This document shows, piece by piece, positions 57,001 to 63,000 of a DNA stretch of 64,000 nt; within the stretch, counting starts at the first letter, position 1; each line of letters opens with the position of its first letter. Origin of the DNA: Carcharhinus longimanus (Eukaryota); NCBI GenBank assembly GCA_030264375.1, contig JASCQW010000072.1, positions 103,998,960-104,062,959 on the forward strand. The letters are read 5' to 3'. Position numbers: made by a program.

Positions 57001-60000
57001 TAGGGCTAATGTTTCAAGGCAGGATGACCCTACATCAGAGCTTCAGATTCAGATTCCAGCATCTGCAGTACTTTGCCTTTATTGACAATTTTTAAACTCA
57101 GCTCGACAGCATACAAGCATTATATTCTAGGCAGTGACAAGGCAATGTTTGGTGGCCTCTCTAATCCAGTATCAGAATGGAGTCAGATTGAGACCTGACA
57201 CTGGCCTGACCTGAGTTATATTGCCACTCTTAGTTGCTGGTGAAGATGTGGCCGCTTTGTTGTGTTGCAAAATTGTCACCATAACTGCACTCCTTATATC
57301 TTTGGGAATTAGATTGTCAATCTCATTGCAGAGGAATGACTTTCATATCAGGAGGCTCTCATAACACTTTGTATCATTGCAAATGTAACATTATAACTGC
57401 AGCCTCAGATATAATAGTACATAATAAGGAAAGCATAGTGACGATCATATATGTGGGGTTGTGAATTCCAAATGTTAGTAATTCTATTCTACACTAACAG
57501 ATCACTTGTGGCATTGCTGAGAGCGAATGTGATGTTACACTATTGCAAGTACATGGTACTGAGTGTGAATGTGAGGGAAGAGTTCACTACATCATTGGAA
57601 GAATTTGAAAAGAAGTTTGGAAGAACTGTCCTCAGAAACAGTGCAGGATCTTTCATTCTTTCATGGAGAACCTAGATAGTGTTATCCTGCTGAAGACCGA
57701 TAAATAAATCCCAGAGGCAAAAAAATCATTTCTGCACATAATTTGGGAAACAGCCTTTTGGTGCACTCCTATTCCACCTTCGATGAGAGAAAGAGCCAAA
57801 AGTAGGAGAGCACTGAGAAATGCCAGGTTGCAGACTACATTGGATATTCAAGCTGGGCTTTTTTAGGGCTCCTGTCTATTACAGAGCTCTTGTTGTAAAA
57901 GGGATGTAATAAGGATTTCCCTAAGTCAGATGTATCTCCTCCCCAGCTTGCAGTCGAGAACAGGCTTATGATTGCCACAGACATACTTGTCTGGTTCCAA
58001 CGGGTATACCCGACCAATCCAATTGAAGGGAGATCCATTCCAGCCCCTGGGGGTGGGTTGGTGGGCCGAATTGCCAAAGACTAGTAGCCCAAAAACTGTT
58101 GGGGGAGAATAGAGCAGCTCTCTTGTAAGGGGCCCATACAGTCACACAAATGATTTTAATAGCTGGGTGATCCAGAACGTTTCCTCCAGCCCGCCACTCA
58201 CTAGCCTTTCTCCCACCCTCCTCCCAGCCCTAGTCCAGCCATCTACTGGATTAGTTAGGGTAACCACGAATTTTCCTAATTTTCCTAATACTATGGACTG
58301 TCTGACTCTAAAGGTTCATTCTCATGAATACAATAGGACCGAAGACAAATTTCTGCAATGTTCCCAATCCTTTATAGGTCTTTACATTTTATTATTTGAA
58401 TCCTTCATTCTTTATCAAATATCTGTGCAACAGCATTCTTAATTTAGGTTCAAAACTAGCATTGTCTCCATAGTAAAGTTCTCATCCTTGCGTTCAAGGC
58501 TTTCTGTGCTTACCCAATTCTATCTCACTCAGCCCCTACCCACCTCCTTGAAATCTGTATTCCTCCAACTCTGGCGTCTTTTCCATCTCATATTTCTCTC
58601 ATTCCATCATTATTGGCCGTGCATTTAGCTGACTAGATCCAAAGCTCTGGAATTCCATCCCTAAACTTAAAATTTGACCCTTTGAACACACTTTTGGTCA
58701 TATATCCTAAAGTTTCCTTTGGCTCAGTGTTGAATTCTGTCGCATTATGCTCATGTGCTATTCTCTGGGACATTTTATTATATTAAATACAAATAAGCAG
58801 AAGTAAATGTAAATTGTTATCTAGAATCTGTGTACTCCATTTTTGTTATAACAACATCCTTCAGTAACTTATTTTGATGTTATGATGCAGCTCTGCCTGA
58901 ATAACCTATTACTGTAATTTGTAGTCGTTAAAATCGTCTTTGATGTGAAAAATGTCTCTGTAATCATCATCAATAATCTTCATTTTTGAGTAATGAAGTT
59001 GTTGTAGTCTCTTTCCCTGCATACACAGAATCAATTAGTTGTTTTTTTATTTCCTTATAGGTTTGATGATCTTATGAAAAATTTACCACTGCCGGAGTAC
59101 TGTGATCCAGAAGGAAATCTAAACTTGGCATGCCGGCTACCAAATTTCTTTGTGCGGCCAGAGTTAGGGCCCAGACTGTGCAGTGTTTATGGTAAGCATG
59201 ACACACACTGCAGTCTACACAATTATGTGCTATTTTGTTGGAAAAGGCTACTCTCTAAATGACTGTGTTCATTTACAGGACAGTCAACTGCTAAGGAACA
59301 TGGAACTATCAATCTGCACCTAGACATTGCTGATGTAGTCAATGTGCTTGTTTATGTTGGTCTCCCAAAAGGGAATGCGAACAATCACAGAGCAGGTAAT
59401 TTCTCAACGCTTCATTTTCACTGTGAACTGGGTTGATTTTTTTTTTGAAGAGTCACACCTACAGTATTTTGAACTATTCTGTCTATCTGAAACGAGAACA
59501 GAAAATGCTGGAAAAGCTCAACAGACTGGCAGCATCTCTGGGTAGAGAAGCGAAGTTAAGATTTTGAGTCTGTATGACCCATCTTTAGAACTGAAGAAAG
59601 GGAGAAATATGGTGGATTTATCACTGTTGTAATGTAAGGAGTGTGACAGTTAATTTGTATACAGTAAGCTCCCACAAACAGTACGATGACGATCCAGTAT
59701 CTGCTTTAGTAATACTCAGGAGAACTCTGTTCTTTGGAATTGTGCCCCAGAATCTTTTACATCCACCTGAGAGGGCAGACAAAATGGTACTTTAATATGT
59801 TATCCAGAAAATTGCACCTCCAACAGTGTAGCACACTGTACTGAGATCTCAATCTAGATTTTCTGCCTATAAGTAAAGAGCTTAATCAAATAAATAGATA
59901 TTTGAACTCCCTTTCTGCTTCTTCTCTTCGTTCAAAGAGCTATTGATGACATCTGTCAATATACCTGTGAACTAGACCATCAGATGATATTGTCCATTCA

Positions 60001-63000
60001 TTGTGTGCAATGAGCACAATACATTGGGAGTTGTTTCTTAACATTAACTGAAAACCACTAAATCAGATTTTAAATGTTGCTGCCTAAAGAAAGAACAGAC
60101 TTGCATTTATATAATTTATTTCATGACCTCCTGAGGTTCAAAGCACTTCATAACAAATTAAGTACCACTATTTTGAAATGTAGTCACAGATTGATGGTTG
60201 TTTTTGTAACAGATTGAGGATGGATTGCTTGTTTACATCAAAAATGCAGTAATTATGGAGTATCTGATGCTGCCAATAAAGAAAAAAATCATATTTAAAA
60301 TTGCTGATTGCACGACTGTTTTGATTTTTGGGAAATAGAGGACCATATTTGCATATACATTATAATTCTGATGGAAAAGAAAAATGTAATGAAAAAAATT
60401 CCCATTTCATCTAATTGGTACCCATAAGCCTTGTAACAACATTAATAACATAATGTGAAGATCCCCAACTCTGATTTCAAATTATTCAGCTGATATCCAG
60501 AGCTGCTCACAACCATAACCCAATCCATGATTGGGAAATCCCTTAGACAATACTATATTCCTCACATTTTAACAGCGGTCACTAGGCAGTATTGCGTGTT
60601 TTATTTTAAATGCATTCATGAGATGAGGCCATCGCTGACTGTGCCAGCATTTTATTGTCCATCTCTAATTGCTTGCTGTCTGGCTTGCTCGGCCATTTCA
60701 GAGAGCATTACTGTGGATCTAAAGTCACATGTAGACCAAACCAGTTAAGGACTTCCCTAAAGGACATTAGTGAACCAGATGAGTCTTTTTACAAAATGAT
60801 TTCATAATCATCCTTAATTCCAGGTTTTTATTGAATTCAAATTTCACCATCTACAATGATGGAATTCTAATTAGGGTCCCTTGAGTGACAATACCACTAT
60901 GCCTCTGCCTGTATAAATTGCCACATCTACAATGTACAGTGTTGGCAGCAAAGACAATCAATTCCTAAACACCAACATAATGAGCCACTCCCAACTCATC
61001 CTGGAACTTAAAATTTTATGGTGCAAGAGAAAACCAAAATGGCAGGTCTCAAAGCAGAGCTTCAATAGTTAAAGTAATTGACATCCATCTCTAAGTAAGA
61101 ACCTGTTGCTCACTTTTTAATACTTCGTCGGTGGTAAAAAAAAATACTGAAAGCACTCCCTGCCTTCTATCTTCCTTTAATGGCATGTTGTCATGGAGCT
61201 GTAGAGAAAACTCACTAATAAAATAAAGTCACCCCAAGGTCAAAGAATTTTATATCACTGTTTGAAATTGCATAGTTGTTCTTGAAGCTTTGTCTCTGAA
61301 GAAATGTTTTCCTACATTCTTGGTGGAATTTATTGGCTTGGGGATTATCTATTATATGTAGAGACCTATTTAGATTGCAGAGAGAGAGGAACATGCGTGT
61401 GCTGGGTAAAGTATCTTGTTTAGATAATTGAAATCATTTTAATCATCTGTTCAGTTGCAAGTTCCTAACAGCTATTTTCAGTGCCATACTCTGAACATAA
61501 AACCATCAAGCTTGTGCATTGGAACATACTTGTGACACTAATAAATCAACTTAAACACATTTGCAAAAGTGCTCAATTTCTGTTTTTCCAGCTATCTTGA
61601 CGAAAATTGAGGAAGACGAAATTGATGAAAACACAAAGAAAAGATTGAAGGATAGTGATGAGACTCCGGGTGCTTTGTGGCACATTTTTTCAGCCAAAGA
61701 TACAAACAAAATAAGGAAGTTTCTACAAAAGGTGAGCAGTTTATACACTTTGACAGCACAAAACTTCAGCAGAAGTGCACTGATCTGCCATGTTGTGGTG
61801 CAAACCGAAATGGTTAGCAACATTGAATGGTTTTGGAAATGGGTTAGGTTCCATAGTTTTATGGACTGAAGAAATTTGGATTGGTTCCTTTTCATTTGTA
61901 TTGAAATAATGAACCACAAAGTAAAATCACCTCATCAAGTTATTGAAGGATATATGTTCTAATTGCCTTGTTTGATATTTTTCAAGTCTTGTATTGTCAA
62001 GGGAATTTTATTAAAACAAGATGGCTTACTGTAATGTGCCCAACTATAAGTTTTATATTTCCTGGGAGAAGTTGTTTTCATTTATTTCTTTGTTAACAAA
62101 ACTGTGTCAAAGTTTAAAAAGCTTCTTATGAAATCACAGCTTACCTCGAATAAGAACGCTTTGTTTCACAATTCAGAGATGTATCTGACAACTGAGTGTA
62201 ATGCAGGGATGTTAGAAAATTTACTTGTTTGTTGTGCCCCCATCAAAAAGGCTAATGAGGATCAGGGTCAGGAATCGCTTGAACATGAGCCAATCCGTGA
62301 TCAGACTTGCTACCTGAACAAGAAACTGCGCCGGAAGCTGTATGAAGAATGTGGAATACGCAGTTGGGCTATCTTCCAGTTCTTGGGTGATGCAGTCTTC
62401 ATACCAGCAGGGGCACTGTGTCAGGTAATTCAAGGCAGTCTCTACCAGAGAATAAGGAATGGTAGCAGCAGTTGGTCATTTGGGTCTTGGAGACTGCTCC
62501 ACTATTCACCAAGATCTTGACTGCTGATCCACCTCAACTCCAGTTCCCTGCACATTCCCCATAAAATTTCATTCCCTTAGTTTCCAAAATATTGTCAGTT
62601 TCTGTCTTGAATGTACTGAATGATTGAACATCACAGCTCTCTGGGATAGAAAACTGTAAAGATTCATGACTATTTGATTCATGACCTCATGTCAATTCTA
62701 AATAGTCGACTGCTTATTCTGAGACCGTGGCCCTCCAGTTCAGGGGAAAATATCTTCTGAACATCCACCCCGTCAATCCCTTTAAGAATTTTATGTTTCA
62801 ATGAGAACACTTCTCATCCTTCTAAACGCCAGAAAACATAGGCCTATCTCGCCTCATAGGACAATATCCACATGCCAGGAATTGGAGTAATGAATCTACA
62901 TTGCACTCCCAAGGCAAGTGTATCTTTTCTTCCATAGCATTCCAGGTATGGTCATATCTGGACCCAATACAATTACAGAAAGGTTAATTCTTATATCCCA

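What the first reader, a model, noticed from the sequence alone, without database searches (positions are those of the whole stretch)
59279..62424. KDM3/JMJD1C-like JmjC domain with substituted cofactor ligands (distal His to Cys, Thr to Ile)
The HxD pair is intact (CAC 59317-59319, GAC 59323-59325). The third iron ligand in the family motif PAGA(P/L)HQV reads PAGALCQ (TGT 62419-62421). GTTNLH reads GTINLH at the position that usually helps bind 2-oxoglutarate. All four exons keep frame and splice sites, which suggests selection on a catalytically altered or dead paralog. It mixes JMJD1C-like and KDM3A/B-like residues (HLD). It may be the shark Hairless-lineage member, which in mammals has Cys at the first His instead.
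Basis: partly seen in the sequence, partly recalled or inferred. Interest (0 to 1): 0.65.

Follow-up and report, generated by a model that had tools for sequence, protein, structure and literature searches.

The report
Lone KDM3-type JmjC exons, altered metal site
Four intact exons upstream of a shark Pax6 gene encode the core of a KDM3-type histone demethylase domain in which one iron-binding histidine is a cysteine and a cofactor-binding threonine is an isoleucine, so it is probably a non-catalytic or fragmentary copy rather than a working enzyme.

Summary
Four collinear + strand exons (59061-59191, 59279-59395, 61592-61731, 62251-62424) have AG/GT at all eight borders, compatible phases and no stop in 187 codons. 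Searched exon by exon, they match only human JMJD1C and KDM3B JmjC domains (E 5e-18, 2e-7, 4e-14, 2e-18). His-x-Asp is intact. The distal iron ligand (KDM3B His1689) is Cys, TGT 62419-62421. The 2-oxoglutarate-binding Thr at His-3 is Ile.

The copy is equidistant from both human paralogues: where they differ, 28 sites follow JMJD1C, 24 follow KDM3B and 14 follow neither. It is therefore an old, separate lineage. Hairless is possible by elimination but could not be tested.

A complete Pax6 gene lies on the minus strand at 7.4-24 kb. No REEP or EGR gene is present, and no other KDM3 exon was found anywhere in the window.

Best reading: coding sequence kept by selection until recently, with a degenerate cofactor site, present here as an isolated 3' gene piece. 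It could be a partial duplicate or a scaffold misjoin. Interest is modest.

The parts
59061..59191 (+). Exon A of the JmjC core (43 whole codons plus split codons at both ends), preceded by a pyrimidine tract and AG
   Evidence: E 5.3e-18 to JMJD1C (31 of 43 identical) and 9.1e-14 to KDM3B (27 of 43). Splice dinucleotides checked.
59279..59395 (+). Exon B, carrying G-T-I-N-L-H-L-D: Ile 59308-59310 at the 2-oxoglutarate Thr position, His 59317-59319 and Asp 59323-59325
   Evidence: E 2.3e-7 to JMJD1C and 1.2e-6 to KDM3B. Both human proteins have Thr where the window has Ile. Codons read.
61592..61731 (+). Exon C, the insert between the two halves of the double-stranded beta-helix, including the P-G-A-L-W-H-I stretch
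   Evidence: E 4.3e-14 to JMJD1C (29 of 46 identical) and 5.9e-11 to KDM3B (25 of 45).
62251..62424 (+). Exon D, ending P-A-G-A-L-C-Q, followed by a GT donor; Cys codon TGT at 62419-62421 replaces the distal iron-binding His
   Evidence: E 1.8e-18 to KDM3B (35 of 54 identical) and 3e-16 to JMJD1C (34 of 56), with His in JMJD1C opposite the Cys. Pfam JmjC 23.4 bits against a cut-off of 24 for this exon alone.

Best explanation
The four exons encode the central part of a KDM3-family JmjC domain, corresponding to about residues 1502-1690 of human KDM3B. That stretch normally carries all three metal ligands and the 2-oxoglutarate-binding Thr. The sequence belongs to an old lineage that is neither the KDM3B nor the JMJD1C orthologue. 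It has been kept open and spliceable by selection for nearly all of its history.

Its cofactor site is degenerate: His/Asp/Cys replaces His/Asp/His, and Ile replaces the Thr that holds the 2-oxoglutarate carboxylate. If a protein is made, it most likely does not work as an Fe(II)/2-oxoglutarate demethylase. It would act, if at all, as a non-catalytic JmjC module (scaffold or binding domain), as proposed for Hairless, JARID2 and JMJD1C.

In this assembly the exons stand alone on the + strand, about 35 kb upstream of the paired-box exons of a minus-strand Pax6 gene. They are therefore probably the 3' piece of a gene that was partly duplicated or moved there, or wrongly scaffolded there.

Shown: exon structure, homology, the substitutions, the Pax6 neighbourhood. 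Inferred: selection, loss of activity, fragment status.
For: Intactness: 8 of 8 splice dinucleotides and 0 stops in 187 codons. In the decay simulation, a copy stayed intact in 215 and 72 of 4000 runs at 5% divergence, 34 and 4 of 4000 at 8%, 20 and 0 of 4000 at 10%, and 0 of 4000 at 15% or more. The two figures are for indel-to-substitution ratios of 0.05 and 0.10.

The copy differs from both human paralogues at 21 of 101 sites where they agree, and it has two in-frame length differences. That much change without a frame break argues for constraint. Where the paralogues differ (66 sites), the copy follows JMJD1C at 28, KDM3B at 24 and neither at 14 (hand counts). This makes it an old, separate lineage rather than a recent copy of either orthologue.

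For loss of function: both KDM3B histidines are called essential (PMC7056651, passage). First-His mutants of KDM3A and KDM3B are inactive (PMC3623819 and PMC13149330, passages). The Thr at His-3 binds 2-oxoglutarate in the KDM3 group (PMC5136575, passage).

For isolation: motif scans found no further KDM3-type exon. Pfam found nothing in any of the 191 + strand ORFs of 42 aa or more between 24 and 59 kb (150, 41). Pax6 was identified (6pax_A, E 1.1e-43).
Against: There are no expression data, no second species and no reads. Single exons are hard to recognise: Pfam itself saw only 1 of the 4 true exons. Missing upstream exons are therefore weak evidence, and an intron longer than 59 kb or exons beyond the window cannot be excluded.

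A recent copy of a functional parent gene would look equally intact, so intactness does not show that this copy is used. A codon-usage test had no power: the true exons scored at or below background. Mammalian Hairless, with a Cys in its triad, is reported to demethylate H3K9me1/2 (PMC8237996, passage), so a Cys ligand need not abolish activity.
Confidence: 0.5

Rival explanations
1. Dead gene fragment. A partial duplicate of a KDM3-family gene landed upstream of Pax6, is not used, and has just begun to decay. On this view the Cys, the Ile and the other radical changes are early neutral damage.
For: No upstream or downstream partner exons were found. The locus is foreign to the family: Pax6 instead of REEP/EGR (PMC3411107). 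Elephant-shark Pax6.1 synteny matches human, and that paper does not mention any KDM3-type gene (PMC3554528: 0 occurrences of kdm3, jmjd1, jmjc or hairless). Several radical changes fall at sites where both human paralogues agree: His to Cys, Thr to Ile, Trp to Cys and Tyr to Cys.
Against: Neutral decay of 5% or more would usually have broken a frame or splice site: 215 of 4000 or fewer simulated copies stayed intact. Both length differences from the human proteins are multiples of three. His to Cys needs two base changes.
Confidence: 0.25
2. Intact gene elsewhere. The contig carrying the exons (to the right of the last N run at 50044-50082) was joined to the Pax6 scaffold by mistake. On this view it really belongs to a complete fourth KDM3 paralogue, the shark Hairless orthologue, next to REEP4/EGR3.
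For: Ten N runs interrupt the window, eight of them between Pax6 and the exons. Only 9 kb of uninterrupted sequence precedes exon A. Equidistance from KDM3B and JMJD1C (28 versus 24 sites) fits a paralogue of 2R age. HR is the only family member left unaccounted for (PMC3411107 lists HR, KDM3A, JMJD1C and KDM3B as one family).
Against: Nothing in the window shows a misjoin. Shark-type interspersed repeats of the same family lie on both sides of exon A. The first His is His here, not Cys as in mammalian HR. No HR sequence could be compared.
Confidence: 0.2
3. Still an enzyme. On this view a His/Asp/Cys site binds Fe(II) or another metal and supports demethylation or a different oxidation.
For: HR with a Cys-x-Asp...His site is reported active on H3K9me1/2 (PMC8237996, passage). 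AspH works with a non-canonical ligand set (PMC13168262, abstract in the listing).
Against: The 2-oxoglutarate Thr is also lost. Single ligand mutations abolish KDM3A and KDM3B activity (PMC3623819, PMC13149330). Others regard HR as inactive (PMC3623819 and PMC2453528, passages).
Confidence: 0.1
4. Sequencing or assembly error at the Cys codon.
For: There is only one genome and no reads were seen.
Against: TGT differs from CAT or CAC at two positions. The neighbouring sequence is clean. The copy carries many other private substitutions.
Confidence: 0.03

Closest known systems
Human JMJD1C (KDM3C) JmjC domain, PDB 2YPD / 5FZO / 9GDK
   Same: It is the best hit for exons A, B and C (66.7, 33.2 and 54.4 bits). 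Identities are 31 of 43, 20 of 30, 29 of 46 and 34 of 56. It shares the Leu before the distal ligand. It has been reported to lack detectable H3K9 demethylase activity (PMC3623819).
   Different: JMJD1C has His-x-Glu...His and the Thr. The window has His-x-Asp...Cys and Ile. At 66 discriminating sites the window follows JMJD1C at only 28. The locus is not linked to REEP3/EGR2.
Human KDM3B JmjC domain, PDB 4C8D / 5R7X / 6RBJ
   Same: It is the best hit for exon D (68.6 bits). It shares the His-Leu-Asp motif. Identities are 27 of 43, 17 of 28, 25 of 45 and 35 of 54.
   Different: KDM3B is an active H3K9me1/2 demethylase with His1560 and His1689 (PMC7056651). The window has Cys at the His1689 position and Ile at the Thr.
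Mammalian Hairless (HR), the fourth KDM3-family member
   Same: It is a divergent family member with one Cys in the metal triad, widely treated as a non-catalytic corepressor (PMC3623819, PMC2453528, PMC8237996). By elimination it is the only 2R paralogue that the window's lineage could represent. From my recollection only, from no call, HR also has Cys at the Trp of the S-W-Y-L motif, as the window does.
   Different: In HR the Cys replaces the first His, not the distal one (PMC8237996). No HR sequence was available, so no alignment or tree was made. The window does not lie at a REEP4/EGR3 locus.
JARID2, Epe1 and plant KDM3 members with lost cofactor residues
   Same: These are JmjC domains that keep the fold but have lost Fe or 2-oxoglutarate ligands and act without catalysis (PMC2453528 and PMC3623819, passages).
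   Different: They belong to other subfamilies or kingdoms, and different residues are lost.

Membership tests
JmjC domain (Pfam PF02373) | Match to the family model at or above the curated score | tested here: inconclusive
   Exon by exon only. Exon D scored 23.4 bits against a cut-off of 24 (E 8.6e-5). Exons A, B and C gave no JmjC hit. The joined model was not searched, by instruction.
KDM3 subfamily (KDM3A / KDM3B / JMJD1C / HR) | Closest sequence relatives are KDM3-subfamily JmjC domains, collinear over the domain | tested here: met
   For all four exons, the only PDB hits with E below 0.1 are KDM3B and JMJD1C chains, in protein order.
KDM3 subfamily (KDM3A / KDM3B / JMJD1C / HR) | His-x-Asp/Glu...His iron triad | tested here: not met
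   His 59317-59319 and Asp 59323-59325 are present. The distal His is Cys, 62419-62421 (numbering from PMC7056651).
KDM3 subfamily (KDM3A / KDM3B / JMJD1C / HR) | 2-oxoglutarate-binding Thr three residues before the first His | tested here: not met
   Ile (ATC 59308-59310) stands where KDM3B and JMJD1C have Thr. The role of that Thr is stated in PMC5136575 (passage). The partner Lys could not be placed from the exon-wise alignments.
KDM3 subfamily (KDM3A / KDM3B / JMJD1C / HR) | Upstream zinc finger and N-terminal half of the JmjC fold in the same gene | tested here: inconclusive
   None was found in 1-59060 by motif scans, nor by Pfam on 191 of 191 + strand ORFs of 42 aa or more between 24 and 59 kb. 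Sensitivity for single exons is low.
KDM3 subfamily (KDM3A / KDM3B / JMJD1C / HR) | Linkage to a REEP and an EGR gene (2R paralogon; PMC3411107) | tested here: not met
   The window holds Pax6 instead. No REEP or EGR domain was found in the 372 ORFs scanned with Pfam, nor in the 10 longest ORFs.
Hairless (HR) lineage | Groups with HR in a phylogeny of the four paralogues | not testable with these tools
   No HR or KDM3A sequence is in the PDB copy or any open library.
Hairless (HR) lineage | Cys in place of the first iron-binding His (mammalian HR; PMC8237996) | tested here: not met
   The first ligand is His (CAC 59317-59319).
Active Fe(II)/2-oxoglutarate oxygenase | Two-His-one-carboxylate facial triad plus 2-oxoglutarate anchoring residues | tested here: not met
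   One His is replaced by Cys and the anchoring Thr by Ile. Activity itself was not tested.

The most novel reading that the evidence does not exclude
The exons could belong to a slowly evolving elasmobranch orthologue of Hairless, the fourth 2R paralogue of the KDM3 family. On this reading its metal site is a selected His/Asp/Cys triad. Together with the Cys-x-Asp...His site of mammals, that would mean the Hairless lineage has used a thiolate-containing, non-canonical metal site since before sharks and bony vertebrates split. Such a site might bind Zn or serve as a redox sensor rather than as an Fe/2-oxoglutarate centre. It would also give a far better conserved template than mammalian HR for working out what that site does.
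Probability: 0.1. Interest if true: 0.6.

Novelty: new variant of a known kind. Interest (0 to 1): 0.3.

Why it matters
JmjC proteins that have lost catalysis, such as Hairless, JARID2 and arguably JMJD1C, are a recognised but poorly understood class. Whether Hairless is an enzyme is still disputed in print (PMC3623819 against PMC8237996). A well-conserved KDM3-type domain with a different ligand swapped to Cys would be a useful natural comparison for that dispute, if it proves to be an expressed gene conserved among sharks.

If instead it is a stranded gene fragment in the Pax6 regulatory desert, it is an ordinary by-product of duplication. In that case it matters mainly as an annotation trap. 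I found no description of a distal-His-to-Cys KDM3 member, nor of a KDM3-type gene beside Pax6, in searches.

Tried and rejected
1. I tried to translate 15 kb of one frame for a single PDB search.

2. I tried to fetch PDB chain sequences for a local tblastn. They are not retrievable, so no local homology search for the missing exons was possible.

3. Motif scans for the upstream half of the JmjC fold, the downstream exon and further copies of the domain found nothing convincing. One look-alike ORF at 57442-57672 has no usable splice sites and was dropped.

4. Pfam on bulk ORF sets returned only chance hits: Macscav_rec E 0.003, Sterol-sensing E 0.0046, and one RVT_1 match.

5. A codon-usage coding score trained on the Pax6 and JmjC exons had no power. 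The true JmjC exons scored -5.2, -1.3, -4.1 and +4.0 in leave-one-out.

6. Rfam gave no match in the window.

7. A repeat search around the exons found no terminal repeats that would mark capture by a mobile element. It found only dispersed copies of a shark interspersed repeat.

8. The ESM Atlas search with exon D returned JmjC clusters only, nothing finer.

9. The Hairless demethylase paper (PMC3963012) is not held.

10. The bacterial, phage, plasmid and E. coli collections were not used, because they cannot hold relatives of a shark gene.

11. No structure prediction, complex prediction or search was run on the joined exons.
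Full report
**What is there**

His is CAC at 59317-59319, Asp is GAC at 59323-59325, Ile is ATC at 59308-59310 within G-T-I-N-L-H, and Cys is TGT at 62419-62421 within P-A-G-A-L-C-Q.

The exact exons are:
- A: 59061-59191
- B: 59279-59395
- C: 61592-61731
- D: 62251-62424

My first borders were off by one at three ends and were corrected. All eight flanking dinucleotides are AG or GT. One base is carried from A to B and from B to C, while C and D end in phase 0. The 187 whole codons hold no stop.

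**Homology, exon by exon**

I did not search, fold or print the joined sequence, so there is no whole-domain Pfam score, structure model or fold search.

Against the PDB sequences, each exon hit only human JMJD1C and KDM3B JmjC chains with E below 0.1:

| Exon | JMJD1C | KDM3B |
|---|---|---|
| A | 5.3e-18 | 9.1e-14 |
| B | 2.3e-7 | 1.2e-6 |
| C | 4.3e-14 | 5.9e-11 |
| D | 3e-16 | 1.8e-18 |

The matches are collinear, covering JMJD1C chain 5fzo_A residues 123-165, 170-201, 208-253 and 256-312. Pfam recognised only exon D (JmjC, 23.4 bits against a cut-off of 24). That result also shows how insensitive family models are to single exons.

**The substituted residues**

JMJD1C shows His opposite the window's Cys. 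For KDM3B, His1560 and His1689 are the two Fe(II)-binding histidines (PMC7056651, passage read). His1560 is index 182 of chain 4c8d_A, so His1689 is index 311. That index lies opposite residue 57 of exon D, the Cys.

The general JmjC rule is that three residues bind iron and that Thr/Phe185 and Lys206 (JMJD2A numbering) bind 2-oxoglutarate. The KDM3 group has His, Asp, His, Thr and Lys (PMC5136575, passage read). Residue 185 is three before the first His, which is where the window has Ile and both human proteins have Thr. I could not place the partner Lys from the exon-wise alignments.

First-His mutants of KDM3A and KDM3B are inactive (PMC3623819 and PMC13149330, passages read).

**Which paralogue**

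I counted by hand from the alignments printed.

| Exon | Identical to JMJD1C | Identical to KDM3B |
|---|---|---|
| A | 31 of 43 | 27 of 43 |
| B | 20 of 30 | 17 of 28 |
| C | 29 of 46 | 25 of 45 |
| D | 34 of 56 | 35 of 54 |

At the 101 aligned sites where the two human paralogues agree, the window agrees at 80. At the 66 sites where they differ, it follows JMJD1C at 28, KDM3B at 24 and neither at 14.

The copy is therefore about as far from each as they are from one another. It is not a recent derivative of the shark's KDM3B or JMJD1C orthologue, assuming those resemble the human proteins.

The family is a 2R set of four: HR, KDM3A, JMJD1C and KDM3B, linked to REEP and EGR genes (PMC3411107, figure legend read). 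By elimination Hairless is a candidate.

Mammalian HR has Cys at the first His (PMC8237996, passage read), whereas the window has His there. I recall, from no call, that HR also has Cys at the Trp of the S-W-Y-L motif, where the window has T-C-Y-L. That is a lead only.

**Constraint**

The window's private changes include four new cysteines at sites where both human proteins agree. These replace Ser in exon A, and Trp, Tyr and the distal His in exon D. There are also two length differences, both multiples of three.

I simulated neutral decay of the four exons with their splice dinucleotides. The two columns are indel-to-substitution ratios.

| Divergence | Intact, ratio 0.05 | Intact, ratio 0.10 |
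|---|---|---|
| 2% | 1274 of 4000 | 839 of 4000 |
| 5% | 215 of 4000 | 72 of 4000 |
| 8% | 34 of 4000 | 4 of 4000 |
| 10% | 20 of 4000 | 0 of 4000 |
| 15% or more | 0 of 4000 | 0 of 4000 |

Any period of neutral drift must therefore have been short. This does not show that this particular copy is in use, because a young copy of a working parent gene would look the same.

**Context**

This is the result that changes the picture. A Pfam scan of the ten longest ORFs found homeodomain pieces on the minus strand. Translation and motif mapping then showed a complete, canonical Pax6 gene. Its features on the minus strand are:
- paired-box exons near 23965, 23149-22934 and 22116
- alternative exon 5a near 23414
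- the linker and homeodomain exons, inside the stop-to-stop ORFs 13267-13695 and 12786-13223 and near 10582
- C-terminal exons near 8355 and 7415

The paired-box exon matches PDB 6PAX at E 1.1e-43.

The JmjC exons thus lie on the opposite strand, about 35 kb upstream of the Pax6 paired-box exons and reading away from Pax6. Any 5' exons of their gene would have to lie between them and Pax6, or across Pax6. None was found by:
- motif scans for conserved KDM3 stretches on both strands
- reading by eye all + strand ORFs of 20 aa or more in 50-59 kb
- Pfam on all 191 + strand ORFs of 42 aa or more between 24 and 59 kb (150, 41)

Pfam on 58 + strand ORFs in 1-7.6 kb and on all 112 minus-strand ORFs of 55 aa or more in 24-64 kb (92, 20) found only one reverse-transcriptase fragment. 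No REEP or EGR gene is present. The exon expected after D is not within the remaining 1.5 kb.

In the elephant shark, synteny around Pax6.1 is reported to be the same as in human, and that paper never mentions a KDM3-type gene (PMC3554528, passages read). The lamprey Pax6 paper does not mention one either.

Ten N runs interrupt the window. They were left as they are. The last one before the exons is at 50044-50082.

The interspersed repeat copies around and inside the exon block look to me like a repeat common in shark genomes. That is recollection. No call names the organism.

**Reading**

The four exons are genuine KDM3-family coding sequence from an old, distinct lineage, with a degenerate cofactor site. 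The most likely functional state is a JmjC module that no longer turns over 2-oxoglutarate. That is comparable to what most authors assume for Hairless and JARID2 (PMC3623819 and PMC2453528, passages read), and to what was measured for JMJD1C (PMC3623819).

The caveat is that HR is also reported to be active despite its Cys (PMC8237996).

In this assembly the exons are an isolated 3' piece in the Pax6 upstream region. I cannot tell whether that reflects a partial duplication, a misjoin with the true locus elsewhere, or a very long intron. My weights are given under the explanations.

**Novelty**

Searches turned up no description of a KDM3 member with the distal His replaced by Cys, nor of a KDM3-type gene next to Pax6. 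One study found no HR outside mammals (PMC3216519, passages read), so the deep history of HR is open in the literature I could see.

The finding is a new variant within a known kind, catalytically degenerate JmjC paralogues. Its interest is limited by the doubt over whether it is a working gene.

Noticed in passing
window 7400-24000, minus strand: A complete canonical Pax6 gene. Paired-box exons lie near 23965, 23149-22934 and 22116. Alternative exon 5a lies near 23414. Homeodomain exons lie inside the stop-to-stop ORFs 13267-13695 and 12786-13223 and near 10582. C-terminal exons lie near 8355 and 7415, the last ending in the conserved W-P-R-L-Q. The paired-box exon matches PDB 6PAX at E 1.1e-43, with 70 of 72 residues identical.
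   Followed up: partly
window 51764-51867, 52180-52374, 55796-55869, 56941-57042, 59497-59524, 59738-59834: Dispersed direct and inverted copies (64-89% alike) of one interspersed repeat, including two pieces inside the intron between JmjC exons B and C. From recollection it resembles a repeat abundant in shark genomes.
   Followed up: no
window 63829-63999, minus strand: An ORF running off the window end that looks like a reverse-transcriptase fragment of a LINE. One member of the 72-ORF set matched Pfam RVT_1 (E 2.1e-5). The tool does not say which member, so the assignment to this ORF is by eye.
   Followed up: partly
window 59131-59133, 62308-62310, 62350-62352, 62419-62421: Four cysteine codons stand at positions where human KDM3B and JMJD1C agree on another residue (Ser, Trp, Tyr, His). 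The distal ligand is thus one of several gains of Cys in this copy.
   Followed up: no
window 10337-10364, 23200-23209, 25627-25726, 26757-26915, 27989-28481, 30185-30284, 33125-33134, 34657-34756, 48178-48242, 50044-50082: Ten N runs of 10 to 493 bases. Several are flanked by homopolymer or low-complexity sequence, for example poly-G and poly-C around 23200 and 33125. They were left untouched.
   Followed up: no
window 1-7400, plus strand: No ELP4 (Pfam PAXNEB) exon was detected downstream of the Pax6 3' end among 58 ORFs of 35 aa or more, although ELP4 abuts PAX6 in other vertebrates. The last ELP4 exon may lie outside the window or be too short for the model.
   Followed up: partly
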